From the NCBI GenBank assembly GCA_965178125.1, contig OZ237743.1:744001-808000 (forward strand): a stretch of DNA of 64,000 bases, read 5' to 3'. Below the pieces are notes generated by a model. That model was not told the DNA's origin, ran no database searches, and saw nothing but the letters and a program-made list of their open reading frames with translations. Shown here piece by piece: positions 12,579 to 44,889 of the stretch; position 1 is the stretch's first letter; each line of letters starts with the position of its first letter. The position numbers and the translations under genes are program-made. Source of the DNA: Bilabrum cf. latius. Its lineage: Eukaryota.

Positions 12579-15500
12579 TCAGCTCACGATGCAGCCATCC
12601 TGGTCTCCAACGTTCCCTTCCTCAGCCAGCTCATCTCCATCCTCGTTTTCTTCCTCTTCAGAGTCAGCTAGCTCGTCCTCCGCGCCCCCCGGATCAGCGC
12701 TATTCGCCGCCAGCCTGTGGCCATCGTCGCCCACCTGCACATCACCGGTTGCATTGGCAAGCATGGGCATGCCACCATCCTGCCTTTCGATCTTCTACGC
12801 TGCCTACCTGGGAGACGGTGGAGGCGGGTTGTCGAACACCTTCACTGCTTCGTACAGCGACTCTGCCGCGTCAGAAGGACACGACTCCCGCACGATGTCC
12901 CATGTCGCCTGCCATGCCTCCTGCTCCATGCTGCCTTCCCCGGCCTCATCGTCTTGGCTATGCCCACTGGCAGCCCCTCCGGAAGCAGCTGTTTCTCCTT
13001 GCTCATTGTGGTGCCTCTCCTCCTTTTCTGTCTCCTCTGTTTCCATCCTGAGCCAGCGAGACGCCCTGGCGACCAGCAGGAGGTTCTGCAGGTTTTGCGC
13101 AGCTGCCACGAAGCCATCCGTGCCCTCGAGTGATGATACAGAAGAAATATCCGAGTGCCGGCTGCCTGCCCTGGCCCTAGAGCCGTCACTACGTCCGCGT
13201 GCTCTGCTAGCTTCTGCTGCAGATACGTCCCCTCCGCCCTCAGATTCTTCGATCCCCAGCTTACCGAGCACATCGGCGGTGCTGCCTCGCTGGGACGGCG
13301 GGGCTGGCAGGCTATCGCCGCGCCTCTCTCTTCCCGCAGCGTCACTATCATCACCCGCACTGCCAGCGGACGCCGCCACCCCCTTTCGGCTGCCGCCACC
13401 CACGTCTGCGTCGCGGGGTCCCCACCTTGCAATGTCTTCGCTCATGGCACGCACGAACTCGATCCAGTACCCAAAGAACCACTCAGGAGCAGCGTCCCTG
13501 AGGTGGGGCGCGGCATTGGCAAGCACGCGCGTGGCAAGGGAGGTTGACTCCGAAGCCACCTCTGCACCACCTGGCAGCATACCCAGACTGCCGGGAATCG
13601 AGGGAGACAGTTCCTTCAGTGCAGGTGACCCCGCAAATCGACTCGACAGGGGTGCATCTCTAGCACCGGCCAACGGCAGCACCACGGCCTGCATGGTCCA
13701 CAACAGGATCTCAAGCGGGAGGCGCACCAGGTCTGTACCCTCCTCCAGCTGTGAAGACATATCCGACCGATTGGGATCATCGTCAGCGTCCGCAGCTTCA
13801 GAATGACGCCCAGGCTCTTGCCGGTTTGCGACTTCACTGGCATCCAGGGCAGTCTTCGGAGGTGTCAGGAGCAGAGTGCCGATGGCGTGAAGACATTCAT
13901 GCGCAACACTTGCGCGCAGTTTCTGGTTGCCCTCGTCCTCACTCGCCTCTTCATCGCCAATCCCGGTGCTGCCATCACCGTCGGAATCGACGGGTGCATA
14001 CGTCACTACGCCGCGCTTTCCATCGCTTGATACCCTCATGTACTTCATTGCCGTGGCCGCGCCTCCAATCGCGCATTCTCGCAGCAGTGCCACCAGGCCG
14101 CGAAGCGAAAGTTGCCACACCCGCCACGACTCATGGCCCGGGTCCACACACCCTGCTGCAGAACTGCTAATCGCCTGCTCGGACACGGCAGGAAGCCTCT
14201 CCAGCTACCCAATGACAGCCAAGCTGGCAACACGCCTAAGCTCCACGAGAGGCAGTCCCACAACCGCGCCGGCCACCGTGTGGTAGTACACGTCCGTGCT
14301 GTCCTCGCCGCTCTGCATGCGCAAGCCAAGGCTACTAGCCGCAGCCACGCGAGCGTGCAGCTCCAGTCTTCGCCTCGAGTCTTCTTCGTCCTCGGGCCCG
14401 CCCTCTTCGCCTTCGGGCTGCGCTTGGAGCCTCTGGCGGGCAAGCGCCACTGCCGCACTGGCATGCGCTCTAGCTGCCTCCAGCTCCTGCCCAAAGACGA
14501 CTTTGCAAGCCGCCTATGCTGCGCGCCTCGCCGCGATCGTAGCAGCCGGCAAGTCTCGCTCGTCCATCCCGCCAAACAGATTGACATCGCAACTACCATC
14601 GTTGCCGCTCCCACTGCTCGCAAAGCTGTTATTGGCCCCAACACCCCCAAGTGCCCTTGATGCCGCCAGACGAGCTTGCAGCAGAGCATGCTACCGCTGC
14701 TCGAGGACAAGCGCAGCTGTCAGACCAACAGCTGCTTCGTCCTCGACCGGACTGACCATGGGCACCCCGGGCACGTCGTGGAGGTCACCGACTGCCTCCT
14801 CGTCGAGCAGGAAGTCCAGCTGCGTGTCATACTGACTCGCATCCGGGAGCCGCTCCTCGTCGGCAAGGGCGGCTTGATGGCTCCGGTACCCCGCCCATCC
14901 GGATAGCGGCGGGCATGCAAGTGGCAAGATAGTGCGGATGATGTCGGCGCACACACTCGGCCGCGCCAGCTCGGGTGAAACCGATCGACGCAGCGCCTCC
15001 CACACCAGAGGAGCCGCGTAAAAGTTCCGAGTGCAACCCTTGAGCGTGTCGAACACAAGCCTCCAGAAGACCAGGCTGTCTGTGCTGCCTGCCGCAACGC
15101 TACCCAGTAGACCACTACCGGCGGCTATGCGAGGCGCAAGAATGTCAGCCACTGGCTTTGCCAGCACCTGAAGCAAGCACAAAAACGGCACGACGTGGTG
15201 GTCGATGTCCGGCTTCTGGGCATCGACAGAGGCAGTCGCATCACCATAGCTGCAATCTGCCCCAGGCATCTCGGATGCCGCTCCAGAGGCAGAAGCAGCA
15301 GCATCGCTGTTAGCTCCCATGCTTGCCACCCCTTCAAATGCCGCACTAGGAACCGGCTGCATGGCAGCGAATAGGGCAGGGTTCATTTTGGGAGACATGG
15401 CAGGACCCGATGGCTCATGGCCGGCCATGGTGCTGGAAGTTCCAGCAGCTGGCAGGCACATGCCTGCCCGTCGGGCAGCATTCTGAGCCGAGTGCCTGTC

Positions 15501-18500
15501 GCACGCCTCCGTGGCTCGCGTGCTGAATCGCATGGCAGCAACCGCGGCTCGCTCCACCAGGTGAGCCCTCTCCATCCTCGCCTCCTCATCGAGCCACACG
15601 CGCATCTGCTGCCCCACCAAATCCTCGTCGTCGTCTTCCTTTCGTTGAGCGGTGCCACCCGAACCATCAGCACCGCTGCCTATACCACCCTGGGTGCCAA
15701 GGGGAGCAGCCGTGCCCGGCCACACAAGTCCATCGGTTGCGACGAAGCCTACCGGCCCGATCATATCACGAACAGATCTCAAGCGCTGCTGCAGCCAAGC
15801 AGGGCGGTTCGTTCGCAGAGCCCATTCGACCTGGGGCTCCGTGAGATCGTCGCCGGAAGGCTAGCCGCTCGGCGCTCCGCTTCCAGACGATGCACGCTGC
15901 GCAGCAGGCTCACCGCTGGGCAGCATCCGTTCCTCCATCGTGATGCTGGGCTCCTCGCCAGGCACAAAGCTGCACGGGTGGAGGAACAAGCCCCTTCGGA
16001 CGGCATCAAAGACGAATGGAGCCACTAGAGAGCCGCGCCACACGTTGCGAAGGGCAACAGCAACGCCTAGTTCCAGGCAAAGTACGGCCTGCGCTGCATC
16101 ATCAGCCGCAGCTACCGTCTAGGGGTATCCTTCGGACAGAGCAGCCATGAGACTCAGCAGAGCATCTCGAGGGAGCTTCGAGACGGTGCCTCCAAAGATC
16201 TCTTGCAGACCGTGTCCCTGCCTGCTGGCTTCGGCTGCCAATGACCCCGCCACAACAGTGTGCTTCTCGGCCTCTTCGTCGTCAGTGTCTTGCTGCAGAC
16301 CAAACAGCGAGCGAATCCCGGTGAAGAGCCAGCCGCCGCCCTCTTTGGAAGTCGCCTAAGCAGAACTAGAGGCCGCTCCGTTCGCACCGTGGGGCGGGCC
16401 TTGATGCCTCGGTGGTCGGTGGGCCGTGCTAATCTCGCCCGTGTGAGTGCCGACAGAGCCGCCGACCGAGACACTGCCATCTCTAGACGTCCTGCGCGGA
16501 CGCGAATGCCCCGGTCGTCTCGGCTGGGCGCGCTACCCGTCCCTCCTGCGTCGTCGACTGAGCACGGACCGGGCACTGGTGACCAGCTCCGACGTGTCAG
16601 CATCGTCTATGCCACCACCCTCGCCGACCGAGCTAACGTCACCACCGAAGGAGCTGCGCCCAACCGACGAGCCATCGAGGTCCTCAGAATCCTCTGCGCG
16701 CGAGTCGCCGTCGCTGTCGTCGTCTGCCCCGCGCACTGCCGCGTATCTGGTGTCCGTGAATCTGGCAGATGGCAGAGGGTCGCCCCCGGGCGTCGTGAAG
16801 TCGTCCTCATCCACCAACGCGCCAGGAAGGCAGTCTTGCCTCTACATATGCAGCACCAACGCAACGACCGCCTTCCAGCTCTGTCGCAGCCCACCGCAAT
16901 GAGTCGCAGTGAGACTGAGGGCTGCCCTCAAGAGAAGGAGCGCACGCCGCAGAAGGTACATAGCGGGTGTCCTGCCAGGGGGACAGATCGGCAGGCCGGT
17001 CTCACTGTCGACACCGCTGTGCACGTGCGGGGTGTCAGGCATCGACAGCAGGGCACGCGCTTCTGCTCGGAGCTTGCGATGGGCCTCGTCCTACGATTCC
17101 TTCGAATCACCACTCTGCTACTCGCCCGGTCCGGTTACAGGACCAGCATGTTTTCGATCAGGTGAAGGCATGGCAGCTGAGGGTTCGCCAGGTGCCACAG
17201 CTTGGGCATCGATCACAGGTGGGACACCGGACAGCTCAGGAGAGCCTAGTCCAGAGTCTGCTGCTGTCTCTGTGCCACCAGCTGCATCTAGCACGTCTGG
17301 AGACTGCCCGTCCGACATCTTGAACGCTGCTGCCCCAGCCCCGAACGGGTCCGGTGAAACTCTCCCCGCACTGAGCGGCAGCGCAACCGGCCCTGCAGGG
17401 AGAATGCAGGCATTCGCAGGGACAACAAGAATCTGCAGCATGGCAGTGCGAGCCACGTAGATCGTCGAGGCCACGATGTCATCCAAGGCCTGGGTGCACA
17501 CGAAGTAAGCGGCGCACGCCGCCAGGTGCCTGAGGCCCTGCGTGCACTTGACGAGCGTGGCCTCATCCTGGGTGGCAGATGCAACTGCCTGAATAGCAGC
17601 AATGGCAGGCTTCACCAAAATCTGGAACATATCGCGTTCATGCTCGCCCGCCGGCAGCAGCAGCGATCCGCCGTTCGCGGTAGCGGCTGCAGTGTCCGTG
17701 TACGCGCTCGCAACGCCCTGCCGCCTCAAGACGCCGTCCCAGTGCTTGCCGATGGCAGGAGCTGCCTGACTGCTTGCATCTGCGCTGGGACCCGACCCAT
17801 CGTCGCTCTTGTTTTCTTCGTCAGCAGCACTTCCGTCGGCTGCGCCCTTCTTCTTCGAGTCCGCGTCTCGCCCCGCCACGGCAGTTGGACCCTGGGGCAT
17901 AGCGATCTCGCGGCTTCGAATGGACTCGTATATCTGAGTCAGGTACTCCTGTGGAAGGTCTTGCCCATCGTCGATGCCGCTGTTGTTCCTGAGGAAACCC
18001 TTTAGGGTCATTTTCTTCTCTTCCGGGATGCTCTAATTGTGCGCGTCCGTGTTGAGCATGACGATGGAGAACGCCAGGATGAAAGCGGTGTCCTGCTTCC
18101 TGAGAGGGTCCCTGGATTGCTCGAAGAATCGCGTCGCAAATGCCTCCATCATTCGATCGATAGTCTGCGCCTCGCCTGGAAGCCTAAAGGTAGACAGGTA
18201 GTGTCTCAGGGCCTCGTCGATGCGAAGGGACGCAAAGTCGAACTGCTTCGTGAACGCAGTCCGCACCTTGGCCTGAAAGGCATACTTGGCATCATCTGGC
18301 TTGGCGAGGTATTCGCCCACCCACTTCTTGTCCATCCCGTGGCATTTGAGGAGCAGCTCGGCCACGTCCTCGGGTGTGGGCTCCTTCGGGAGCAGGCCCA
18401 GGTCGGTGGCGAACGGGACCCAGTCCCTGTGCTTGCCCTCCACTTCGTTGAACCGCAAGGCCAGCTGACCCATCCTCCGCTTGACCTGCTTGTTTCTCCG

Positions 18501-20251
18501 GAGGTCCTCCAGCCTGGCACTTAGCTGCGCCAGGACTGCCTTCTAGTCCGCCGTGGAGCCTCCCACGCGGGTGGCAGCGCTCGTCGCCACGTCCACGGCG
18601 GCAGCAGCCGCGGCCGCAGCCGCTTCCGCCTCCTCAGCCTCGACTCTACCCAGACCACTGGCACGCATCATTCCAGCAGCACCGCCGGTACCCATGCTGG
18701 GCGCGCGCCTGCCACCCCTTGACGCTGCGGTTGCCCCGACCGCCACATCAGGGGAGCAGCGCCTGGCCAAGCCCTCGGCGATCGACAAAATCCCTTCTAC
18801 CGAGAGCACGTGAAGGTTCGTCAACCGCGCTGAGGGCCTCGGAACAGCGTTCCTTCCAAGGCAGACGCATAGCGCCTCGAAAAGATTGGTGCAGGCGACA
18901 TCGCAGTCGTAGTTGACATACATGTCCAGCATCATGCCGGGCTCCCTGGCGAACTCCAGGAGAGATTCGATGGCCAGCTCCCTCTGCTCTGCGCTGGCCG
19001 TCCGGCTGTTGGCGAGCATCAGGTGCACAGAGGTGAAGAAGACCTCTAGCGGCACCTTGAGGTGCGCCTTCAGCGAAACGAAGAGGTTAAAGACAACGCG
19101 CAGGGTGGCCGATAGAACGCCTACCTCCTCCGATCTGCTGTTCTGGACGAGCATTCTGCACAGCTCCGCTTGGCACACCTTCACGAGCGCCGGGAAGCGA
19201 CCCATCGACTGCCCGCTGCATTCGAGAACCATGGACACCAAGCGCAGGCCTTTGAGCCGCTTCGGGGCGGCGTGCTTGGTGGGATCCAAGAGACCGGCAA
19301 GCCAAGACAAGATCTTTGCCAGATCCGCCGCACTGTGCGGGATCGCTGTTGATCTCGTAGATCCGATCTGGAGGCTAGGCGGAGGCGGCAGCGCGCTGCC
19401 AGCCACTCCCTTCGCACCTCCGGCAGCCTACTCCCGTGAGGCCGCACTCGAGACGGCAGCTTCTGCACCTGGTGCGCCCCTCTCTGCTGCCACGGAGAGT
19501 GGCGCTGCTTGCGCGACAGGCTGGAGTGGGACGCTCTAGCGCAATGCCATGGTGGGGAGCCTCGTGAACAGGGTGAGGATCACGTGCGAGAGCGCCGAAT
19601 CGGCTGTGGCTCGCAGCAGGTGGCTGGCGCGAGGCATGTCGCTGATGCGGTAGCACGTCTCGCATGCCTGCCAAACGGACGTTCCGGTGAGCATGCGCCC
19701 AGCAGAGCACCGAACCACGTTTTCAACGAGCTCCAGGAGCTACATCAGGGTCGTCTCGTCGTCGCTGCTGCTCGAGGACTCGAACTTGCAGCGCGAAGCA
19801 GCCGATGCAACCGCGTTTACAGCACCATGGCCGCCGATCGTCTCTTCTTGGATCAAGCCATACAATATGAACTTGTTGATTGCCTGGAGGGCAATACCAG
19901 TTATTGGCCCCGAGGCATCCGCCGACCGCATCACGTCGAGGAATGGCCTCAAGTACGTGAGAGCATCAACGTCAGAGAGATCATCGACCGCCTACAGGTG
20001 ATCATGCAAGGTCTTGAATGAACGTAGCAGTGGTGTCTCTTGCTGCGGACGATGACTGGGAGACAAAATTGCTAAAGATAAACTGAACCGGCAACGTTGC
20101 CTTGCAAGTGCGGCATCGGTGGACGCAGACTCACTTGAATTGGCATTTCTCGCTCGAATCTAGCCTAGCTTGCCCATCGACTATTCAACCGCATTACAGA
20201 GACTACATTATGGATTTCAGATTTGACGATGTGCACGCTGGATGACTGCAT
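12579..20251 (-). CDS. GBF1: Large Sec7-domain ARF guanine-nucleotide exchange factor, GBF1/GNOM family (~2,526 aa; exons 20251-20135 and 20042-12579)
   Basis: N-terminus IVKSEIHNVVSVMRLNSRW; DCB motif LRPFLDVMRS...GPITGIALQAINKFI; HUS box YVNYDCD; Sec7 motifs FRLPGEAQTIDRMMEAF and MLNTDAHN*SIPEEKKMT. Co-frame fragments are joined by TAG (e.g. 20165, 19992, 19740, 19536, 19428, 18543, 18033). Ends in TGA at 12579. Confidence 0.92.
20043..20134 (-). other. Spliceosomal intron (92 bp, GTGAGT...CCGCAG) in GBF1
   Basis: Removal joins ...EREMPIQ to QETPLLRSF... and restores the frame of the conserved GBF1 N-terminus. Confidence 0.8.
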
Positions 20252-23126: not shown

Positions 23127-26100
23127 ATGATTTTGGCGTATATTGCCCTGTTGTCGTCGCTTGCGAGCGGAGCAAGGAACTCAGTCGAACAAGATGACTT
23201 CGGGGTGTACTACCCGCGAGGTCACAACCGTATTGGTGAGAAGTATCGGCCGCTTGTATGTAAACATGAGAAAGTGAGCCACGACAGCGCCTCAAAACTC
23301 GGACCGCGTGCCCTCTGCTGCTGCAGGCGAATACAGGGTCCTTGACGTTGGAACAGCAAATCTGGCAGAGAATTGGAGGCAAACAAACAACTACATCGAA
23401 CAGGTAAGATGAAAGTTGCCGCCGCCCCGCGAGTCCGAAGAGTGCGTCACTGTCGGTCTTGCGGCTGACCAGACGTGTAGTGCCTGCCAGCCTGAAAATC
23501 TTGTGCAATGCACATACCGGTACCCATGTAGCCATCTTGGATCGTTCGTGGTATTTTCGCAGACGCTCAATACAGCGGCTCGCCGCTACACCGAGGTAGC
23601 GACGTCAGGGTGCTAGGCCAATTGCCGGTAGTCCTAGGGTTCCATCATGGGAACCGCACTCATGGGAGACGGAGTGTTCGGCCTGTTCGAGAGCGGAGAG
23701 GCGCAGGTGAGTATTCGCAGCAACGACAACGACGCCCTTGGGATCATTTGGGCCCAGGACCGGGACAACTTCTACCTCTTCCAGTACGTGGAGGAGGAGA
23801 GCGCGTGCAGCATCGTCAAGGTCAAAGGAGGCACCAAGTCCAACATCGCGGGATACCTGCGGCAGAACTGCCCCAGCGGCCTTCGCCGTGGTTCTTTTGA
23901 CCAGGTACGGTTCCGTCTGGACCGGATTAGCAGCACCCAAGTCAGGCTCCAGGGCCGGTTGAGGGGCAATTTGGTCCTAAACCTCCTGGACACGTCTGCC
24001 ATCGAGGGCGCCTTTGTGCCCGGCATGTACAACAGCTGGCACTTTGGGCCCAGATACGACAATTTCCGCGTGTGGGAGACCGGTGCCTCGTGCTCGAACG
24101 GCGTCCTCGATGGCGACGAGCGCTTCATCGACTGCGGGGGCCCTTGCAGCCCATGCAACAGCACCACCACCATGCAGCTCGACTTCACCAGCGCCAAAGA
24201 CATTCGCGGGTGGTCGTCGACTGACCGCACCACAAATGGGGGTGTCGCCAACTGGCACATCAACTCTGGTCAGCTGCGTCAGAACGGCAACGTGGGAGGC
24301 AGCAACTACGGCACGTCTTCGTCCTCAGTCACCGCACGGTGCCGAGCTCGCGGTTTCTCCACGGTCGCCGTGTACGAGGGCTGGGGCAGGAACTTCTACC
24401 CCGATTTCGACTACGAGGCCAGGATGTACAACGGAGACGACGACCGTATCATGATGGTCTTCAACTACGTCGACTTGAACAACTTTTACTGGCTGGAGCT
24501 GCAGCAGCAGAGCCGTTGCGTGGTCATTAGGAAGAGGCGCAGGGGGGGCACCGCTGACCTCGCCGACCTCGCCGCATCTGCAAGCCAGACGTACGCCCTC
24601 CGCACGTGGCACGTCTGGAAGATAGAGAGCCGGTACGACTACGACAGGGACAGGCGTACCATCAAGGTGTTCCGTGATGGAGTAGAGGTGCTTGAGGGTA
24701 CCGATTCGTAGCCCCTAGGTCCAGGCGCCTTCGGCTTCGCCACCGATTGGAACAGCGACCTGCGGATTGACTGGGCCCGGTTCACCACCTACAAGCCATC
24801 CACGGAGCTGCAGTGCGCCTCCTCGGAGCTCCCTGTCACCAGAGACCTCACGCTGCACCTAGACGCTGCCGGCAATCTTGTGCGCAACACCCAGCTGATT
24901 GACCAGACCGCTGACAGGCGCAACACTAACTTCTTCGGAGGCCCCAGCATCCGCCGCAACTCGTGGCGAAATTCTCTCGATTCATTCTTCATGGATGACA
25001 GCAACGACCACGGCCAGATCTGGAAGGACCTGATGGTGACGCCTCGTTGGCAGGGGCTGACTGCCACCATTGTGGTGCAACCGAGCGATGGCCGTGACGC
25101 ATGCTACTTGTGCCAAGGCTTCGTAACCGACACTCGCATTGGGTGGGGCATCCGTTCAGAGAGCGGTGTGGTGCGTGCAGGTGCGATCACTATGTTTGGT
25201 GGTGGCCGTCAGGGCGGCCTCCACAGGCTCTCCGGTTCCGACTTCACGCAGCCCTCTATCTACACCATTCGGCTCACCCCAAGCTCGTCTAGTCCGTACG
25301 GAAACTTCAACAGTCTATCTTGGGACTTGAGCGCGTACAGGAATGGCCAATCCATGACCATTAGCGGGCTTGCAGGGAACGGCGGCAGCCTGAATCGTTT
25401 CGCGGAGGGTTTCTTGAAGGACCGGCTGAGGATCGGACACGCGTCATGGGGTAGTAACAGGCTACGTGGGCATTTCTTTGAGACGGCTGTGTATCCACGT
25501 CCTCTAAGTGACGGCGAGATAGAGGCAACCCACCTGTACCTCCGGGACCGCTACGGCGTGGGTTCCTGCGAGGACCTGAGCCCGCCCACCAACGCAGCGT
25601 ACATCAACGGGACGTGCTCGTCGGCCGGCAACGGGGACGTTTGCAGGCACGAGTGCAGCAGCGGCTTCGTGCGTGTCACTGGTGACTACCAGCGAAGGTG
25701 CGACGGTGGCGGATTCTGGTCCGGTGCGGCCCTAGTGTGCGAGCCCGCATGCGAGTGGGACCCCGCCCCAGACACGCCAGCAGACGACGACTTTGCACTC
25801 CGTGGAGGGTGCAGGAGAGATCTATTTGCACTTGACTTTGCGACTGATGCGAGCCGCACAGGCAGGACACTTCAGGAGTCTTCCACGACTGGATTCCGCG
25901 GACTTGTTGCATACCCTGTCTTCCAGGCGTTCAGGTGGGGCGTCACTGCATCCATGGACGACGCTCTCGTGTTCAACGCGGACGGTGCCAACGACTGTGG
26001 AGACGCAAGGCAGCATTCCGTGGCGCTCGTGGGCTCATCTCCTTGGCAGAACAGCCGAGATGGCCTAATCGTGAACGCCCGTGTGATGATCCCCGCAGGC

Positions 26101-29100
26101 GAGTTGGCCGGTGTGGTCACTCGCGCAGGCGACGGAGGGCAAGGCTACTACATTTTCGCGGTGAGTGCGGATATGGGCACCGCCGCGATCTACACGGTCA
26201 CCAACGGGGTATGGAGCAACTAGACGCTCTGCTCCAGCGCAGACCCTGTGCCATCAAGCGCAGGTGGAGCTGGCGGCGTGGGCGAGGCCTCTCTGACCGG
26301 CCTGTCTGCCAACAGCTGGGTCATGCTGTCGCTGGAGGTCACCGAGGACGGCATGCTGATGGGTAGCTTCAACGACAGGGTCGTGTGCACCGCCAAGGAC
26401 TCCCGCTACAGGTTCGGTTCCGCCGGCATGTGGGTTTCTGGAGCTGTCCCCGCGGCCGCATTCCGCGATTTCTCGGTGAGCCGCGTGGACCCGAACTGCG
26501 GCGGCACCAAGGACAGGGTCTGCTACGACCTCACCGAGGGGAGGTCCTGCTGGTTGTAGTGCGATGCAGGGTACTACTCCACTGGAAGCACGAAGCGAAC
26601 CTGCGAGCGGACAGGCGCTAGCTCCATCGCCTTCAATGGGACCAGCATCGGGTGCATGCTCAAGGCTCCCGAGTTCCCCGCCGGTGTGATCGAGCTAGAT
26701 GCCCCTGAAAACCTGCAGAGGGGCGATGCCGTCGGTAGCACGCTCAATGCCACTGTGGATGAAGGCAGCGGACTGACCATCATCTATGAGATCCTCGCGG
26801 GCAATGACCTGGGCATCTTCGAGATCGACGGGTGCTCCGGACAGCTCTTGCTGGTGGAGGAAGCGCTCGATTTCGAGAACCCGCAGCGCAACTACTTTAC
26901 GCTGCTCATCAACGCCTACATCGTGGGCAGCCCGCAGCAGGCCAACTCCACGAAGACCGTGTACGTCAACGTGCTTGACTCGAACGACCCTCCCATCGCT
27001 GGGGATGCCCAGATGACCGTGCCCGAGAACTCTGTTGCCAACACGCTCGTCGGCCGGTTGGTGGCCCAGGACCCCGAGGACGACGAGCTTACCTACTCGA
27101 TGCAGTTCGGGGACAGCAGGAGGTTCAAGATCGACCCCGATGGGTCAGTGCGTGTCATCGAGGATGCGCTGGCACTGGACTTCGAAAGTCCAGAGAACAG
27201 CTTCAACATCCTGTACCGCGCCGAAGATTCGGACGATCCCACCGTGTACGGCGAAGGGTTCCTGACCATCCTGATCACAAATGTGAACGAGCCCCCAGTC
27301 CTTGTGTCGGACGACACTTACATCGTCGATGAGACTCTGTACGACTTCAACATCACGCTGGGGGACGATGTGAGGGTGGCCGACCCGGATGCAGGCGACT
27401 CTGCAACCTTTACTGTGGGTTCTGGCGGATCTGCCAGCGGGCTGTTCAGCGTGGATGCCAGCGGTCGCGTGTTCGCGGCATCTTCCGCGTCTGCTGAGCG
27501 GTTCATCGACATCCTTGCCTTCGAGCAGGACGGCAGGCAGATCAAGGCCAAGGACACGCTGACAATCACTGCAAGGGACCAGGGCGGGCGGACTGCAGTG
27601 CAAGAGCTGACTCTCTATGTGACCGCCAACATCACAACGGCTGACCCGATCATCTCCGGTGTCGTCCTCGACGACGGGACTGGTGGTGCCACTGGCGGCG
27701 GTGAGGGCGAGGAGGAGGTTGGCGGTCTGTTTGACGACTTCAGGCTCGACACGACCGGCGGGCAGGTCGTTTTCTTCTATGGCAGCAACATCCTTGTCAA
27801 AGAAGCGGACCCTTGGGCCGTGGTCACCGCGCGAGCACTGGATGGTGCTGGCGTGTCCTCTGGTCTGGAGTACACCGTGGAATGCAGGTTCCAAGGCGTG
27901 AACGAGTCCCAGCTGTACGGCATCGAGGATTCTGGCCCACCTGATGGCGAAGACACCAGCAGCGGCGGCGGCGGCGACAGCGGCGGTCTGGGCGGCGAGG
28001 GCAATTCTACGGAGCCAATTGAGCCTGTTGGTCGAGTGATCGATCAAAACGTGCCTTACATCGCATGCTTGACGCCTGCGGGTGCAGGCACTGGGTGGCG
28101 CTGGAACCTGTGGATCCGCTTCAGCCCAACGACCGTGCGCAATGCGTCTTCCAACATCCCACTGATCCACACGTACGAAGCGCCATCGCCTATTTCGGTG
28201 GCCGACGAGAATGCGCAGCGTGTGATGAACACGATCGGAGATGACACCTTTTTCCTCTCTGGCCAGAACTTCGGACCCCCCGTGTATGCAACCATCGCTG
28301 GCGCGGTGCGTGTGACATACGGCCCTGTGGGAGGAGAGAACAAGTACGTGGCGCAGGTGGTCAGCGTTGACCAGGACGTGATCGAGGTGCGCACAGCGCC
28401 TGGATCCGGCGGGTGGCACTCGTGGATGGTGGAGGTGGCCGGTCAGTCCGGAGTGATTCAGGGTGCCCCGGAGGACGACGGAACGAGGTACTTGTCGCCT
28501 AACCCGACCGACCTCACTCTCTTCATCGCATCTGCTGAGAACGGGCCTGACGAGCTGTTGACTCGTGGCGGGCAGACTGTGGTAGTTGACGGTGACCAGT
28601 TCGGGCCTGCTGGGTCTCCCCTTGACGTGCAGTTCCGGCTGCGCTCCAGCTCTGTGGAATGGGCGAACCAGACGTTCGATCGGCTGATCACGCTGCAGTT
28701 TACCAGCTGCTAGCATAACCCTTTGAACCCGCACACGCAGCTCATCTGCACGACCCCGGCGGGGTCAGGTTCAGGGTTCTCTCTTTGGGTCTCTGTCGAT
28801 GGGTAGGCTGATGTGCTGTCGTAGCCCCAGTCAGGGCTACCCTTCGGCTACGCCAAGCCCATCGTAACGGCCGTTGGCGGTGCCGGCGCCGTTGACGCGA
28901 ACACTGAAGGTGGCTAGGTCATCCGCATTGACGGTGTGTCCTTCGGACCAGCGCAGCTGCCCCCTGCCAGCCAGTACCCTACCCCTGTGCGAGTGTACTA
29001 CGGTGGTGCCGATGCCGACGAGTACGAGGCAGTTGGGTGCCGTATGGTGGCAGCAGGTACCTCCGGAGCGGCGCTGCTTGAGACGCACATCACCTGCGAG

Positions 29101-32100
29101 ACTGCCCCGGGCACAGGCCGTGGCCATGCCCTCGTCGTGGAGGTGTCGGGCCAGAGGAGCGAGGTGCCGTACCTGCGACCAACGGAGGGCATCACGTACG
29201 GCCCGCCCGTGCTCGCCTCTTTCCAAGCTAGTCCCAGCGCACCAACTGGGTCTGATGTTGTGGGTGCTGCCGATACGGCCGGATCTGAGGAGATCATGAT
29301 CAACGGCAGGAACTTTGGCAGGTGGACTGATCGCTTGATGGTGGCGTACTACAAGGAAATAGAGACGCCGCTTAACGACGATGGGTCGAGTGGAGCAGGA
29401 GAGCTGGCCGGTGGACCCAACGAGGACGTTATCCGTTTCGAGCCGGCGGTGGGCTCCTGCGTGGTGCTCGTACCTGACAGGCAGATCAGGTGCACGACCG
29501 GCGCCGGGGCGGGTGCCTCTCTCAATTGGATCATTACCGTGGACGGACAGAACAGCAGTAACCCAGTGACTGCGTACGCAGCTCCGGTGCTCACCTCGGT
29601 GCACGCGCAAGGGCAGCTGTCGACGTCCATCCCGCCGCCCGGCCTGTCTACTGACGGCGGCGAGCGTCTCTCAATCGTGGGCATGCACTTCGGACCCAGT
29701 GGAGACGACTTCAACGGGGACACAGGCCTCGTGCAGCGGGTCGCTTACGGGATCGGTGGCGTGGCCTTGAGCGGTATCACCGGCAAGCAGCCCGGAAACG
29801 CGTCCTCCTCCTCCCAGCCTCAGTCCGGTACCGTGTACGAGCCGATCGACTACGAGGTAGTTTCCCATACCCGCGTGGATGTTGTGTTGCCCCCCAGCAT
29901 CGGAGAGGGTCACTGCTTCGGCATGCTCGTTGCGGACCAGGAGACTGTGGCAGACCCCACTTCGTCCCCCGCGAGGTACTGCTTCGACTTCGCGCCTCCT
30001 CAGGTAACATCTCTGACCCCGAGGCGCTCCGGTAGCAACCCAGACGGCGCGACCATGACGATCCGGGGCACGAACCTGGGACTGAGGGACCCCACGGCTG
30101 ACGTGCTCGTGATCATGGGCGTGGGAGAGGCGGGCCCTGGCGTGAGTGTGCTGGCTCCCTCCGCCCGGACCCCGAGCATCGACCAGGTGCAGGCGGCCGT
30201 GAGCACTGGCAGCCCCACGTGGTACAACAACCTGCCTGCAGCAGCCGCCCAGTCCATCACCGTGCCCATACCCGCTGGCGTGGGCAAGGACATCCCAGTG
30301 AGGGTCATGACCTACACACCGCCGTCACAGTCGACCGGACGAAGGTCCCAGGATGTGGCTCTGTCACGGTTCAGCTACGATGCACCTGTGGTCGACTTCG
30401 TGCTGCTTCGCAGGGTGGATCCTTCCGACCCCCAGGAGGTGTTCGCTGCTCGTCGCGCTCTCGGTAATTCAGTCGTGGATGGGGCCCCGACTGGCCCTAA
30501 TGGCACGACCTCTGCAAGTAACAGCGTGCTGGATCAGCTCCGCATCGTTGAGGTGATCGGCCAGAACTTTGGGCCCTCCATGCTGGGCAGCGCTGTTGAG
30601 ACTACCGAGGTTGGCGGTGCTGGCATCACTGTGACCACTGATGCCGCCGCGGAGCTGCCTTTGTTCGTGGCAGTGGCTCGCAATATGACCACGGACCAAC
30701 CTTTCTGGAGGCACGATCGCATCGAGCTGATCACCTCTGTGTCGCAGGGCAACTTGCGGGTGGTGACGAGACCGACTCGGTCCACACCGGCAGTCAACTG
30801 GCAGGCCAGCAACACCGCCGAGTACCGTCAGGAGAGCCCCCGTGTGTTTGGTCTGGTGGGGAAGCAGGACGGTTTCCTCACCCAGGGTGGGGAGATCCTG
30901 CACGTCAGGATCGGGAACCTGCAGGCAGCCGAGACCTTGCGCATCGAGGTGGGGCTACAGGGGGGCATCTGCCCCATCACCGACTCAAACGGCAACGCCA
31001 GGACACCAGCGCAGGTAGCCACCGACATCCAGTCGCAGACTGACAACGCCCCTGACGCCAACAACGTTCTGTTCGACATATACTGCCGATTGCCCGAGGG
31101 CCAGGGCACCGACAATCCGCTTGTGGTCTACCGAGGTGAGACGCCCGGCCAGTCGGACTCCATCCGCGTGGCGTATGCCGCCCCCACGATCACTTCCATC
31201 TCCATGCGAGCGACTTCGTCCGACGGATGGACGGTGGTCTCCTCTGGCGCCAACCTTGACTCGAGCCCCGTGCGCATCCCCTCCCGCGGTGGACAGATCC
31301 GCATCCGCGGCGAAAACCTCGGGATCGCTCCTCAACTGGTGCACGGTCGCAACGGCGCCGAGGCCTCGTGGGTTCTGCTTGGCAACATGACCAGCATCCG
31401 CCAGTCGGGTGGTGCCACGGCAATCAGTCGCAGCCACACTGAGATTGTGATCGGGCTGGGCGAAGGCGTGGGCAACGGCGTGGCCGAGACCGGGTCTGCC
31501 GACGGGTACGTCCTTGACATCATGGTTGGCGACCAGCCCACGGCCGTCTCGCCTCGCGTCTGGTACCGCATCCCGTCCGTGTCGTCGTTCCAGGCTGCTG
31601 ACCGTCCCACCCTCGGAGGCAACTTGGTGATCATCGATGGCAACGATTTCGGCACTCTGCTTGAGTCAGAGGTGCCAGTCGTGCGCATCGGAGGCAGGGT
31701 GTGCACCAACACCGCCCGTGTCGCTTCCCACTCGAGACTGTCATGCGACGCACCTGCGGGCACTGGGCTCGAGCTGGACATCGAAGTGGAGATCGGCGGG
31801 CAGATCGGCACGGGAGCTCGGCTCTATTCGTACAACCCTCCGACCATCTCTGCGGCCGTGGTCTCAGAGACGCCCTCGTTCCAGGGCCCCAGGCCGGAAG
31901 GCAGCTTCGACTTTGGCGGCCCCTCGTTGGGAGGCTTCAACATCACGCTCACTGGTACCGACTTCGGCGATCCATCCATTGCTGGTGCCGCCGGGACTGA
32001 GCGCGGTCTCTGCGTCTTTTTGCCTGCACTGTCTGACGCGCAGCTTGCGTGCGATGGACGTTTGAATAACCCGTGGGAGGGGGAGGTGTGGAGCGGCCAC

Positions 32101-35100
32101 ATCCGGGTGCATTCCCATGGGCGCTTGGTGGTGGAGATGCCCCCAGGCATGGGCAACCGGCGCTTCGTGCTGTACATTGGCGGGCACACCGTGACCATGC
32201 AGGCAAGCACTCTCGGTAACAACAACGTGGGCGAGCCTCGCGCGATGGAAGCTGCCGATGGAGCCGCGCTGATGTCCTACGACGCGCCCGTCGTGACTGC
32301 GATGACTCCTCAGACCGGCAGTACCGCGGGACGGGTTGAGGTCACGCTCACCGGATACGGGTTCGGCTGGGGCTCAACGGTCGCTGCCAACGGGGAAAGA
32401 AACACGAGCGAGGTGCTACCGTCTCGCCGCCTTCAGGGTTTCAGCCCGTACGGTAACGGAGGCGCGCCCCTGCCGCTTCCCTCCGTTCCTTTGACCGCCG
32501 ACCCCGAGGAGTCGGCTCTGGCGAAGGACTTCCCGCCTCCGTACATGGTCCGGGTAGACTTTGCTCAGGGGTGCGTGTCGAGTGCTGTGACCCCAATCAG
32601 CGCACAAATTCCTGGGAATATCGGCGAGCTGTCCAGCTGCGAGCGGGAGCAGGACGGCTTTGGCGTGGTGGGCCACGGTGACTTGGAGCTGAAGTTCATG
32701 TCTCTGCCCGGCATCGGTGTCGAGAAGGAGGTGCGCATCGTGGTGATCGGTCCTGATGGCACCATCGTGTCGAGGAGCAACCCCGTCCGCTGGAGCTTCG
32801 ACCCCCCCGTCATCACCGACATCCGGCCGAACATCCTGCGGATGAAGCGCCACCCGTGGCTGGACGATGACACAGCTACCATCGTGCCACCACCTGGCGT
32901 GGACCCAGAGTTGGCAGCCGAGGACGCGGAGGACCTGCGAACTCGCAGCTCTATCTTGACGATCGTTGGCAGGAACTTTGGCCCACTTGATACGCGCGGA
33001 TGGACGGACCAAGAGCGTGTGCTGCAGGTGTGGGTGGACGGCCGCCCCTGCCGCAATCCCATCCGCTCGCTGGACACGCGCGGGTCGCTGCTCGACAACG
33101 CCGGCACACCCGAGGAGCAGCAGATCGTCACTTGTTCCCTGGAGTGGCTCGAGGTCGGATACAAGCCCATCAACATCACCGTGGCGGGACAGACATCGGC
33201 AGCCACGCCCGGGTTCGCATTTGAGACGGTGTGCGCGGCGGGTTACTACGGCCAGCCTGGGGAACACTGTATCTCCTGCCCGCTGGGGGCACAGTGCGAC
33301 GGGTACAACGACGGGTTCATCGGGTTCACCAACTTCACAGTTCCACTCATGTACCAGGACGGGCAGCCCAACCCCGAGCTGGCTGCCTAGCGCACCGGCT
33401 GCCTCGCGTGCCAGTCCGAGCCCCGCTCCATCCCCGGGTACTTCAACCTTCTCGGCCTCGAGGATCCCGACGGCCGCAGCGAGAGCTTCTGTAATGACGC
33501 CCGTGTGCCCACTCGCGACCCCCCCAACTGCAACACGATGGCGCCCTGCGAGCCCCCGGAGGCCTGTCTGGGCAACAACGAGTGCGCCGTGGGGTACAGC
33601 GCCGAGCGGTGGCCCTTCCGCTGCTCGCAGTGCGCCGAGGGGTACTACAAGAGGTCTGGGCTGTGCGTGGAATGCCCCGACAACCCGGAGGTGTTCATCG
33701 TGCTGTTCATCATCGCTGCCATGGTGGGTGCGTTCGCCGCGTTCGCGCTCAACCGGGCCCAGGTGAACATCGCCTTCATCTCGATCGGCACTGACTACTT
33801 CCAGGTGGTGGCCACTCTGGCTTCGAGCCGGGTGCGCTGGCCGGAGATGCTAGAGGAGCTCTTCCACGTGCTGTCTGCCTTCAACCTGAACATCGAGCTG
33901 ACGGCGCCTGAGTGCATCGTGCCTGACGTGGACTTTGTCGAGAAATGGACTGCTTTCGTGCTGCTGATCCCAGCCATCTTCATGATGCTGCTGGCCGTCA
34001 ACTATGGCTACTCAGCGTACAAGGTGTTCTGCAGGGGCTCCGACAAGCACAAGGCATTCTCGCACACTGGACAGCTCGTGCAGATGTCCCTTCTGCTGCT
34101 GTACTTCTCGTTCTACCCGATGGTCCGGATTGTATTCGACGCACTGAACTGCAGCGCCAGCGGCAATCCCGTGGAAAGGGACCGGAACGGCGACCCGATC
34201 ATGTACCTGCAGGCCGTGCACGAGCCCTGCGATCTCAAGGGCGGAGTGCACCAGACCCTGCTGCCGTGGGCCATTGTGGCCATGATTGCTTACGCCGTGA
34301 TCTACCCTGGCTTCATGGCCTACGCGCACTACTACAACCGGAGGCTGTTCATGATCGACCAGCTGCTGCGCGCCATGGGCCGCGGCGAGACCAGGGAGGA
34401 GAACCGCCTTGCCTTCGACGTGCGCAAGATGTACTCGCGGACCTATTACCAGCTGAGGCCCGACTACGTGCATTGGATCTTCGTGCTGCTGGCCCGCAAG
34501 TTCGTGCTGGCCATCACCTCGCTGCTGTACGTGCGCACGCCCTCCCTGCAGATGGCCTCAGCACTCCTCGTGGTCTTCTTCGCGTACACCATGCAGGTCA
34601 TCTACAACCCGTTCATGTCTCCCGCTCGCTTCCCCAACGAGCTCAAGGAGCACGAGAGGCTAGCCAAGGAGGGTCACCCGGTGCACCAGAAGCTGCGCGA
34701 CGACATCCGAGGCATGATGCGGCACTGGCGCAAGTCCGGGCACAGCAACACGATGGTGGCTGGGGCGCCCAAGGAGCTGACGCTGGAGCGGGCCGGCGAG
34801 ATGCTGGTGCAGGGTGCTTTCGACTACAACACGCTTGAGGCGACTCTGCTTGCGTGTGCCCTGCTGGTGATGCTGTCCGGCGTGATGTTTGAGGCGCTCG
34901 CCGAGGAGGACAGCAGGGAGACGGAGAGGGAGGGGCTGGCCATCCTGGTGGTGGTGATCATCGCGTCCAGCATCATCTACTTCTTCTTTGTCGTGTGCGC
35001 GGAGGTGTACAACATCATCTCCGTGAGGAATGCCAAGGAGGCCGCGCTAGAGGGCAAGAAGGATGCGTTCAAGAAGAGGCCCAGCGTCAGCAGTGGCATC

Positions 35101-35697
35101 GGCGACGCGCCCAAGATCCGCGATGCTGCGGGAGAGTACGCTGACGTGCCCCAAGTGAACGCCAACGACCAGCAGATGAACCCCATGTTCCTCAAGATGC
35201 AGAAGAAGAAGAAGAAGGACGGAGAGGGGGGCGAGTCTATCGACCCCGAGGCAGGTGGCGTCGATGATGGCACCGTCCGGGCCATGCTCGAGGCACCCGA
35301 CCAGGGCGTCTGGATGGTGCTTCGGGAGCAGTACCTTGCCATGTCCGACCAGGTCAAGGAGCTGCGCGTCAGGGTGCGTGATGCAGAGATGGACGCCGCT
35401 GCGGGCGCTGCCGACCCCTCGTCCAGCACCAGGATGGCTGCCGCAGCAACCCAGGGCCGAAGGAAGGTGAGGATGGGCGGTCGCCGCCGAGCCTTCGGGC
35501 AGCAGGCCGCGGGGACCGGAAGGGAGAGCGGTGCCGTGTCTACCACTGGAACTGGGGCTCGCGAACGCTCGCCGAGCATTGCCTCTGGTGGAAGCGGTGG
35601 CAGCGGCGGGATGACCCTGAACGCGATGCGCGCCGGCATGAAGGGCCGCCGCGGGTCTGGCCGGAAGCTCCTCGACGGTGGAGGTGACGGCAAGTGA
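23127..35697 (+). CDS. Giant cell-surface adhesion/receptor-like protein (~4,106 aa): signal peptide, ConA/LamG-like lectin domains, DCGGPC motif, Sushi domains, cadherin repeats, many IPT/TIG domains, Cys-rich region, multi-TM C-terminal domain; exons 23127-23235, 23327-23403, 23563-35697
   Basis: Signal-like MILAYIALLSSLASG; cadherin motifs LDFE, DSNDPP, NVNEPP, DPDAGD; Sushi C..CSSGF...G...RRC..GG.WSG..LVC; repeated IPT motifs (T.GG..I.G.NFG, CxTPAGxG, VxGQ); 7 or more hydrophobic helices after ~33690. Eleven in-frame TAGs in exon 3; ends in TGA at 35695-35697. Confidence 0.85.
23236..23326 (+). other. Spliceosomal intron (91 bp, GTGAGA...CTGCAG)
   Basis: Removal joins the signal-peptide exon in frame to GEYRVLDVGT... 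Confidence 0.6.
23404..23562 (+). other. Spliceosomal intron (159 bp, GTAAGA...TCGCAG)
   Basis: Canonical ends, phase 0. Joins ...NWRQTNNYIEQ to TLNTAARR... Confidence 0.6.
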
Positions 35698-43166: not shown

Positions 43167-43236
43167 TGGATTCTGACTTATCTCTTGCGACGGCAGACTG
43201 CAAGAAAACTAAACCTTAAGGTCTATTCTCGGCCTC

Positions 43237-44706: not shown

Positions 44707-44889
44707 GTGTGCGGCAGCGGCTGCAAAGATAGGATTACTGCCACGAGAAAGAGAGCGAGCAGGCAAGCAACATATTTTGGGGGGATCGGACTGTGATGAC
44801 GATCGCATTGGCTGCGCATGGTCCATATGCCATTTCGTATCGTTCGTACCACAAAGAAAGCAACTGTTGCGCTCCTACTCTTCGCAAGC

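What the first reader, a model, noticed from the sequence alone, without database searches (positions are those of the whole stretch)
28711..28917. The protein's own internal repeats identify the amino acid as glutamine
In the giant surface protein, the IPT repeat with four TAGs reads WVSVDG*AD (28804) and NTEGG*VIRIDG (28915). Sister repeats in the same ORF have ITVDGQNS, VEVAGQSG, VEVSGQRS, VEIGGQIG, ITVAGQTS, and TTGGQVV, TRGGQTVVVDG, SRGGQIRIRG (two others have E at this second site). TAG therefore sits at the repeat's Gln positions. This needs no external database.
Basis: seen in the sequence. Interest (0 to 1): 0.88.

Follow-up and report, generated by a model that had tools for sequence, protein, structure and literature searches.

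The report
TAG codes for glutamine here

Summary
Four in-frame TAGs lie at 28711, 28804, 28822 and 28915, in IPT/TIG repeats 3 and 4 of a 4106-aa secreted multi-pass membrane protein (11 TAGs in all).

Formal alignments put the TAG at 28804 on the most Gln-rich repeat column: 7 of 13 sister repeats, and 959 of 1461 repeats family-wide. The TAG at 28915 sits on the second most Gln-rich column (Q 240, E 305 of 1348). The other two fall on unconserved positions.

The internal repeats alone give Gln only 0.28-0.64 posterior, so "needs no external database" is overstated. Independent evidence settles it:
- **Close relative.** A metagenome contig (L001, 76% identical Sec7/GBF1-type protein) also carries in-frame TAGs. 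At the window's TAGs in conserved blocks it has TAG, CAG, CAG and GGC.
- **Strain variant.** One run reads TAG as CAG at 33388, among 29 synonymous and 7 non-synonymous codon changes.
- **Homologue columns.** Ten columns give Gln 0.97.

Across 14 ORFs (18,553 codons) there are 128 in-frame TAGs and no in-frame TAA or TGA. Genes end in TGA or TAA.

The organism groups with stramenopiles. No stramenopile with this code turned up in five literature searches. The tRNA and release factor could not be examined.

The parts
23127..35697 (+). Gene for a 4106-aa secreted, multi-pass membrane protein. Exon 1 is 23127-23235, exon 2 is 23327-23403, exon 3 is 23563-35697, with the TGA stop at 35695. It has 11 in-frame TAGs.
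   Evidence: ORF under TAG-sense. GT..AG joints in contigs of runs X1 and X3. The spliced frame opens with a signal-peptide-like start. Pfam finds TIG, Cadherin, Sushi and DUF7630.
23236..23326 (+). Intron 1 (91 nt, GT..AG)
   Evidence: Joint seen in contigs of X1 and X3 but not of X2 or X6. Ends checked.
23404..23562 (+). Intron 2 (159 nt, GT..AG)
   Evidence: Joint seen in contigs of X1 and X3. Ends checked.
27643..33237 (+). Array of 14 IPT/TIG repeats (aa 1410-3274 of P0001)
   Evidence: Hand-cut repeats aligned. The iterated HMM finds 14 domains with E from 3e-25 to 2e-12. Pfam TIG E = 1.2e-33.
28498..28866 (+). IPT repeat 3, holding the TAGs at 28711, 28804 and 28822
28858..29214 (+). 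IPT repeat 4, holding the TAG at 28915
28711..28713 (+). TAG codon (P0001 residue 1766) on a variable repeat column
   Evidence: Family-wide column: S 206, G 153, N 144, A 135 of 1329; Q 32. The ortholog fragment P0140 has V here.
28804..28806 (+). TAG codon (residue 1797) on the conserved Gln of the last strand of the repeat
   Evidence: Q in 7 of 13 sister repeats and in 959 of 1461 repeats family-wide, the top Gln column of 122. Colinear homologues show Q, Q, Q and a gap. P0140 has Q.
28822..28824 (+). TAG codon (residue 1803) in an insert region, not informative
   Evidence: Insert state in the HMM alignments. P0140 has M.
28915..28917 (+). TAG codon (residue 1834) at the position after the GG of the first strand. 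This column is a mix of Gln and Glu.
   Evidence: Family-wide: E 305, Q 240, D 210, T 201 of 1348, the second Gln column of 122. Colinear homologues show T, Q, Q, T. The relative's ORF fragment P0140 ends exactly one residue before this site, on contigs of up to 12,129 nt.
33388..33390 (+). TAG codon (residue 3325) read as CAG in a contig of run X2
   Evidence: T>C at 33388 at depth 25.2 of 25.2. Of 37 changed codons shown, 29 are synonymous, 7 are non-synonymous and 1 is this one.
12579..20177 (-). Sec7/GBF1-type ARF-GEF gene (2532 aa, 19 TAGs), used as an independent test of the codon's meaning
   Evidence: Pfam Sec7 E = 2.1e-59. 120 homologues listed of 191 found. TAG columns. Relative L001.
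19992..19994 (-). Sec7 codon 62, TAG; TAG in L001 as well
   Evidence: Column has Q in 54 of 100 homologues. L001 has TAG with identical flanks.
19740..19742 (-). Sec7 codon 146, TAG; CAG in L001
   Evidence: L001 has CAG with 10 of 10 flanking residues identical. Family column: K 93, Q 11, R 5 of 112.
18543..18545 (-). Sec7 codon 545, TAG; CAG in L001
   Evidence: Family column: Q 27, K 14, N 10 of 96.
18033..18035 (-). Sec7 codon 715, TAG; GGC in L001 (variable site of the Sec7 domain)
   Evidence: Family column: D 51, P 41, H 14, K 7, Q 2 of 120.

Best explanation
The window is nuclear DNA of a GC-rich (about 0.60), intron-poor eukaryote that groups with stramenopiles. In it, TAG (UAG) is an ordinary sense codon for glutamine, while TGA and TAA still end genes. 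This is the same code as NCBI table 15.

The four TAGs of the finding are four Gln codons in IPT/TIG repeats 3 and 4 of a 4106-aa surface protein. One sits on the conserved Gln of the repeat's last strand.

Shown here:
- TAG is in frame in every long gene.
- TAA and TGA are excluded from reading frames.
- TAG aligns with Gln in paralogous repeats, in homologues and in a close relative, and it interchanges with CAG.

Inferred from other organisms with this code, not seen here: a tRNA-Gln with anticodon CUA reads UAG, and eRF1 has lost UAG recognition while keeping UAA and UGA.
For: **Sense codon**
- 14 ORFs (18,553 codons) hold 128 in-frame TAGs, no TAA and no TGA. Their two other frames hold 321 and 392 TGA, 40 and 56 TAA, and 141 and 144 TAG.
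- Every ORF of 500 or more codons under a TGA-only stop rule that I take as a gene carries 3-20 TAGs.
- Terminal codons are TGA ten times and TAA twice.

**Gln from repeats**
- The column of the TAG at 28804 has Q in 7 of 13 sister repeats and in 959 of 1461 repeats family-wide.
- The column of the TAG at 28915 has Q in 240 of 1348. These are the top two Gln columns of 122.

**Gln from Sec7 homologues**
- X62 has Q in 54 of 100 and X545 has Q as the top residue at 27 of 96.
- Ten columns together give Gln 0.97, then Ser 0.023, Glu 0.0025 and Lys 0.0020.

**Close relative L001** (76% identity over 749 aligned residues)
- Its 789-codon frame holds 5 TAGs.
- In conserved blocks the window's 4 TAGs pair with TAG, CAG, CAG and GGC.
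- Window Gln codons pair with Gln in 10 of 14 cases. Lys pairs with Gln in 1 of 18, Glu in 2 of 32, Leu in 0 of 66 and Tyr in 0 of 8.
- The empirical posterior for Gln is 0.98.

**Strain variant**
- TAG reads CAG at 33388 in run X2, among 29 synonymous and 7 non-synonymous codon changes.

**The TAGs are real**
- Contigs of four runs from three studies cover 27546-29052 or more. X1, X2 and X6 show no differing letters there (table 8).
Against: - Two of the four TAGs of the finding (28711, 28822) lie on unconserved positions.
- The column at 28915 has slightly more Glu than Gln, 305 against 240.
- Sec7 X146 lies on a Lys-dominated column (K 93 of 112). The seven Sec7 columns alone favour Lys (0.68) over Gln (0.21) under one weighting, and give 0.75 against 0.10 under HMMER defaults.
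- X715 pairs with Gly in L001 and with D or P in the family.
- Distant solved homologues show other residues. For the S28 peptidase TAG these are L, S, S, L. For the phosphoesterase TAG it is L. For the CRAL-TRIO TAG it is S. All are variable positions.
- No tRNA gene lies in the window and no genome is held, so the decoding tRNA and eRF1 are unseen.
- There is no protein-level evidence.
Confidence: 0.93

Rival explanations
1. TAG is a sense codon for another amino acid. Lys and Glu are the only ones with any support; Leu, Tyr and Ser are the other reassignments known elsewhere.
For: - Sec7 X146 column: K 93 of 112.
- Sec7 columns alone favour Lys under two of three weightings.
- The column at 28915 has E 305 against Q 240.
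- Distant solved homologues show L or S at three TAG sites.
Against: - At X146 the 76%-identical relative has CAG with identical flanks, and likewise at X545.
- In conserved blocks Lys pairs with Gln in only 1 of 18 cases and Glu in 2 of 32. Leu (0 of 66) and Tyr (0 of 8) never do.
- The column at 28804 has K 16, E 14, L 85, Y 5 and S 38 against Q 959 of 1461.
- X62 has no K, no Y, 1 L and 6 S among 100 homologues.
- The strain variant reads CAG, not AAG or GAG.
- The combined posterior is Ser 0.023, Glu 0.0025 and Lys 0.0020.
Confidence: 0.03
2. TAG has a dual, context-dependent meaning: Gln inside genes but also a terminator at some gene ends, as in some ciliates.
For: This cannot be excluded from about 12 gene ends. 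Such codes exist (recalled; abstracts of PMC4967479 and 10.1101/2022.04.12.488043 were seen in the listing).
Against: - None of the 12 terminal codons counted is TAG: ten are TGA and two are TAA, one of them the false end of phosphoesterase exon 1.
- The gene upstream of Sec7 in L001 ends in TAA after a conserved C-terminus.
- In-frame TAG is about as frequent as in the other two frames, 128 against 141 and 144. That shows no avoidance.
Confidence: 0.03
3. The TAGs are not translated as such. Either they are nonsense mutations (CAG to TAG) in decaying genes, or the mRNA is edited U-to-C back to CAG, or they lie in unrecognised introns.
For: C-to-T change of CAG would also put TAG on Gln positions. 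The RNA status of runs X1 and X3 is only a guess.
Against: - There are 128 TAGs but no in-frame TGA or TAA and no frameshift over 18,553 codons. Decay would also create TGA from CGA and TGG.
- Strain differences are mostly synonymous, 29 of 36. That indicates purifying selection.
- The relative L001 keeps a TAG at the same codon.
- Runs X1 and X3 hold contigs spliced at two GT..AG introns. They also hold contigs identical to the DNA across three or all four of the finding's TAGs; the fourth in X3 lies in a record with 23 differing letters whose places I did not see.
- The TAGs sit inside repeat columns that align without gaps.
Confidence: 0.01

Closest known systems
Nuclear codes with UAG reassigned to Gln while UAA stays a stop: Iotanema spirale, Protocruzia tuzeti and two phyllopharyngean ciliate lineages (NCBI table 15 type)
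   Same: UAG alone is a Gln codon, and UAA and UGA terminate. The named cases come from passages of PMC11687900 read.
   Different: The host lineage differs: the window groups with stramenopiles. The genome is GC-rich and prefers TGA as its stop (10 of 12 terminal codons), whereas the phyllopharyngeans are reported to prefer UAA. No tRNA or eRF1 data are available here.
Ciliate/hexamitid/ulvophyte code (NCBI table 6): UAA and UAG both Gln
   Same: UAG is read as Gln.
   Different: TAA is not a sense codon here. There are no in-frame TAAs in 18,553 codons, although the other two frames hold 40 and 56. TAA ends the CRAL-TRIO gene and the gene upstream of Sec7 in L001.
UAG reassigned to Leu (uncultured rhizarian, one ciliate lineage), to Ser (Scotinosphaera) or to Glu (a ciliate with UAA = Lys)
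   Same: Only UAG is reassigned, or UAG and UAA are uncoupled (passages of PMC11687900).
   Different: The residue differs. Leu, Ser and Glu are each disfavoured here.
TAG = Gln recoding in crAss-like and other gut phages (code 15)
   Same: The same codon takes the same residue (abstract of PMC9523058, seen in the listing).
   Different: Those are phage genomes. This window carries eukaryotic genes (Sec7/GBF1, Las1, TTI1-like, PX, CRAL-TRIO) and spliceosomal-type GT..AG introns.
IPT/TIG-repeat surface proteins with cadherin repeats and a C-terminal multi-pass membrane region (unnamed homologues P0002-P0005 and 149 others)
   Same: The architecture is shared, as is the conserved Gln in the last strand of the repeat.
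   Different: Identity is only 28-38% to full-length homologues. Closer relatives are seen only as ORF fragments (P0133 79%, P0145 78%, P0129 53-57%, P0140 45%).

Membership tests
UAG-to-Gln nuclear code with UAA and UGA as stops (NCBI table 15 type) | TAG occurs in frame in conserved protein-coding genes | tested here: met
   128 in-frame TAGs in 14 ORFs, inside Pfam-matched domains such as TIG, Sec7, PX and Peptidase_S28.
UAG-to-Gln nuclear code with UAA and UGA as stops (NCBI table 15 type) | TAG positions align with Gln in homologues | tested here: met
   Ten homologue columns give a Gln posterior of 0.97. The close relative shows CAG, CAG, TAG and GGC at four sites. Individual columns are mixed: X146 favours K and X715 favours D or P.
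UAG-to-Gln nuclear code with UAA and UGA as stops (NCBI table 15 type) | TAA and TGA are retained as terminators and absent from reading frames | tested here: met
   No in-frame TAA or TGA, against 40-56 TAA and 321-392 TGA in the other frames. Terminal codons are TGA ten times and TAA twice.
UAG-to-Gln nuclear code with UAA and UGA as stops (NCBI table 15 type) | TAG is not used as a terminator | tested here: inconclusive
   None of the 12 terminal codons counted in the window is TAG. The sample is too small to exclude a dual meaning.
UAG-to-Gln nuclear code with UAA and UGA as stops (NCBI table 15 type) | A tRNA-Gln with anticodon CUA | not testable with these tools
   No tRNA gene lies in the window and no genome is held.
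UAG-to-Gln nuclear code with UAA and UGA as stops (NCBI table 15 type) | An eRF1 altered in stop-codon recognition | not testable with these tools
   eRF1 is not encoded in the window (Pfam scans of the ORFs).
NCBI table 6 (UAA and UAG = Gln) | TAA is also in frame as a sense codon | tested here: not met
   No in-frame TAA in 18,553 codons. Letting TAA be sense does not lengthen any of the major ORFs meaningfully.
IPT/TIG domain (PF01833) repeat protein | Significant match to the TIG profile, in repeated units | tested here: met
   Pfam TIG E = 1.2e-33. A family HMM finds 14 units.

The most novel reading that the evidence does not exclude
A whole clade of unnamed, GC-rich, stramenopile-affiliated protists uses UAG as a Gln codon with UGA and UAA as stops. 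Its members would include the window's organism, the 76%-identical metagenome relative L001, and more distant relatives whose giant-protein gene is cut into ORF pieces under the standard code. This would be the first nuclear stop-codon reassignment in stramenopiles. It would also have arisen in a GC-rich genome, where loss of the codon under AT pressure cannot be the cause.
Probability: 0.45. Interest if true: 0.78.

Novelty: new member of a known kind. Interest (0 to 1): 0.62.

Why it matters
Nuclear genetic-code changes are rare. Cases where UAG and UAA are uncoupled are rarer still: passages of PMC11687900 name only a handful.

If this lineage is unreported, it adds an independent origin of UAG = Gln in a new supergroup branch and in a GC-rich genome. 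That bears on how such codes arise, by suppressor tRNA(CUA) capture or by codon disappearance.

The practical point is immediate. Standard-code gene calling breaks this organism's genes apart. The giant gene splits into pieces of 354, 447, 685, 1484 and 730 aa. Its relatives' genes are stored as fragments in public protein sets. Annotation of this genome and its relatives should use table 15.

Tried and rejected
- **No genome.** None is held for the window, so the tRNA(CUA) and eRF1 could not be sought.
- **Atlas search.** I did not send that ORF anywhere else, so its 19 TAGs stay unused.
- **TTI1-like protein** (20 TAGs): a homologue search found nothing at E <= 1e-5.
- **Single-repeat seed.** A phmmer search within the protein gave only weak hits. 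I replaced it with hand-cut repeats and an iterated HMM.
- **Sequencing runs.** No RNA holder is listed. X1 and X3 are only guessed to be RNA.
- **Low-depth joints.** Those with non-GT..AG ends (for example 27930 to 28984, skipping 1053 nt) I take to be patchy matches of paralogues at the 90% likeness I set, not deletions.
- **First tree script.** It got no answer. A lighter one ran.
- **Unalignable TAG pairings.** Those of L001 with the window in low-complexity stretches (Sec7 214, 250, 256, 271, 274, 770; upstream gene 373, 407) were dropped before counting.
- **Literature.** Five searches and passages of a 2024 stramenopile overview (PMC11412368) showed no stramenopile nuclear reassignment. 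A search for an accession prefix found nothing.
Full report
**The observation**

They lie in the frame of an ORF that runs from 23416 to 35697 once TAG is read through (4093 codons, 11 TAGs, no TAA or TGA). Under the standard code the gene falls into pieces of 354, 447, 685, 1484 and 730 aa.

**The surroundings**

The window is eukaryotic nuclear DNA with GC about 0.60. Pfam finds these families:
- Sec7 with the HUS domain
- Las1
- a TTI1-like TPR region
- PX
- CRAL-TRIO
- a phosphoesterase (phospholipase C type) split by an intron
- an S28 serine carboxypeptidase
- a rhamnosidase-like glycosidase

Across 14 ORFs (18,553 codons) there are 128 in-frame TAGs and no in-frame TAA or TGA. The other two frames of the same stretches hold 321 and 392 TGA, 40 and 56 TAA, and 141 and 144 TAG. 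So TAG is as frequent in frame as out of frame, while the other two stops are strictly excluded. Terminal codons are TGA ten times and TAA twice. TAG makes up 128 of 850 putative Gln codons (CAG 516, CAA 206). No tRNA gene lies in the window, and no genome is held.

**The gene**

Contigs in two runs of two studies (X1, X3) join across 23236-23326 and 23404-23562 with GT..AG ends. Runs X2 and X6 do not show these joints. The spliced frame starts at an ATG at 23127 with a hydrophobic, signal-peptide-like N-terminus. It runs for 4106 codons to the TGA at 35695, with 11 TAGs.

The domain order is:
- three jelly-roll-like modules (by eye; no Pfam hit)
- a Sushi repeat and cadherin repeats
- 14 IPT/TIG repeats at aa 1410-3274 of P0001
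- a Cys-rich stalk (DUF7630, below Pfam's cut-off)
- a multi-pass membrane region that is conserved in the homologues

I aligned the 14 repeats with MAFFT. I also built an iterated HMM alignment that adds 55 repeats from four homologues.

| TAG | Own sister repeats | Four homologues |
|---|---|---|
| 28804 | Q 7 of 13 | Q 25 of 54 |
| 28915 | Q 2-3, E 3 | Q 10, T 9, E 7 of 44 |
| 28711 | variable column | variable column |
| 28822 | insert region | insert region |

An exhaustive search with this part of the protein gave 1029 hits, of which 150 were listed. Realigning 1478 repeats from 149 of them gives:
- Column of 28804: Q 959 of 1461, then L 85, V 67, R 57. It is the top Gln column of 122.
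- Column of 28915: E 305, Q 240, D 210, T 201 of 1348. It is the second Gln column.

How far this identifies the residue depends on the data used. With the protein's own repeats alone, profile emissions give Gln 0.28-0.64. Family-wide and weighted per protein, three columns give 0.74 and the two informative ones give 0.88.

**Independent tests**

*Sec7 protein columns.* The search found 191 homologues, of which 120 were listed and used.
- X62: Q 54 of 100
- X545: Q 27 of 96 (top residue)
- X146: K 93, Q 11 of 112
- X715: D 51, P 41 of 120
- Three further columns are unconserved.

These seven columns alone lean to Lys under two of three weightings. Together with the repeat columns they give Gln 0.97, Ser 0.023, Glu 0.0025 and Lys 0.0020.

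*A close relative.* A scan of metagenome contigs found L001 (3675 nt, GC 0.59). Its Sec7-protein frame is 76% identical over 749 aligned residues and itself holds 5 in-frame TAGs in 789 codons.

I defined conserved blocks as positions with at least 8 of 10 flanking residues identical. There are 505 such positions. In them the window's four TAGs pair with TAG (codon 62), CAG (146), CAG (545) and GGC (715).

| Window residue | Pairs with Gln in L001 |
|---|---|
| Gln | 10 of 14 |
| Lys | 1 of 18 |
| Glu | 2 of 32 |
| Leu | 0 of 66 |
| Tyr | 0 of 8 |

An empirical likelihood from the same alignment gives Gln 0.98. This resolves the Lys-leaning column X146. The gene upstream in L001 is syntenic and ends in TAA.

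*A strain variant.* Four runs from three studies were laid on the gene.
- X1, X2 and X6 show no differing letters across the four TAGs.
- X2 differs elsewhere, and 40 of its 121 differences were shown.
- These change 37 codons: 29 synonymously, 7 non-synonymously, and one from TAG to CAG at 33388.

*Relatives' fragments.* P0133, P0145 and P0261 (60-79% identical) share contigs of up to 4894 nt. P0140 and P0129 (45-57%) share contigs of 12,129 and 11,516 nt. The orthologous gene of these relatives is therefore also cut into ORF pieces under the standard code. P0140 has V, Q and M at the first three TAG sites of the finding. It ends one residue before the fourth.

**Results that do not point to Gln**

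- Distant solved homologues have L, S, S, L at the S28 TAG.
- They have L at the phosphoesterase TAG.
- They have S at the CRAL-TRIO TAG.
- All are variable positions at about 25-30% identity.

**Who it is**

- The closest named Sec7-protein homologues are oomycetes (36-40% identity) and labyrinthulomycetes (34-35%). Brown algae and diatoms follow, and then animals.
- In a single-gene FastTree, the window and L001 are sisters (support 100).
- They sit inside a clade of ten rows, all of them unnamed (99).
- That clade lies next to labyrinthulomycetes plus oomycetes plus ochrophytes (90).
- This is weak placement: one gene and no bootstrap.

**Mechanism**

By analogy with other UAG-only reassignments (passages of PMC11687900), a tRNA-Gln(CUA) would read UAG without touching UAA. 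eRF1 would need to have lost UAG recognition. Neither could be examined here.

**Novelty**

UAG = Gln with UAA kept as a stop is known in Iotanema, Protocruzia and phyllopharyngean ciliates. Five literature searches and one stramenopile overview showed no stramenopile case. Supplements were closed, and the library lacks most subscription journals.

I file this as a new member of a known kind. The wider claim of a clade-level code change in stramenopiles stays open.

Noticed in passing
23127-23562: The giant gene has two short GT..AG introns (91 and 159 nt) near its 5' end, and its start codon lies in an upstream exon that encodes a signal-peptide-like N-terminus. The three TAGs at 23614, 23629 and 23635 are therefore coding.
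   Followed up: yes
23614-23637 and 28711-28917: TAGs in the giant gene are clustered. Three fall within 8 codons (P about 0.001) and four within 69 codons (P about 0.005), by simulation of 11 TAGs over 4106 codons. I have no explanation.
   Followed up: partly
40384-42128 (+): The phosphoesterase (non-specific phospholipase C type) gene is split. Exon 1 matches profile positions 7-286 and a second ORF at 41361-42128 matches positions 288-354. An intron therefore lies near 41240-41490. The TAA that 'ends' exon 1's ORF is intronic.
   Followed up: partly
43237-44706 (+): An S28 serine carboxypeptidase gene (Pfam E = 7.8e-56) carries a TAG in the conserved EHR..G.S-x-P motif. The long antisense ORF 43216-44826 (-) is probably not a gene.
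   Followed up: partly
27930-28984 and other joints in 25823-34357: Low-depth contigs in X1, X2 and X6 match the gene in patches that skip 69-1053 nt without GT..AG ends. They are probably paralogous IPT-repeat genes. The 1053-nt skip would remove exactly three repeat units, including all four TAGs of the finding.
   Followed up: no
window 26000-32000: Seven runs from three studies, filed under three different coded organism labels (A, B, C), each hold 90-99% of the sampled words of this stretch. Four of them were laid and confirmed.
   Followed up: partly
29121-34383: Run X2 (and in part X6 and X3) carries a diverged allele or strain of the giant gene. Of the 36 codon changes shown that do not involve TAG, 29 are synonymous.
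   Followed up: yes
L001:2-887: In the relative, the gene upstream of Sec7 is syntenic with window 20493-22433 (-). It is conserved only at its C-terminus and ends in TAA where the window has TGA.
   Followed up: partly
27145-28734 (-) and other antisense ORFs: Long stop-free antisense frames (for example 529 aa without any TAG) overlap the giant gene. This is expected in GC-rich coding DNA and they have no family match; I did not take them as genes.
   Followed up: no
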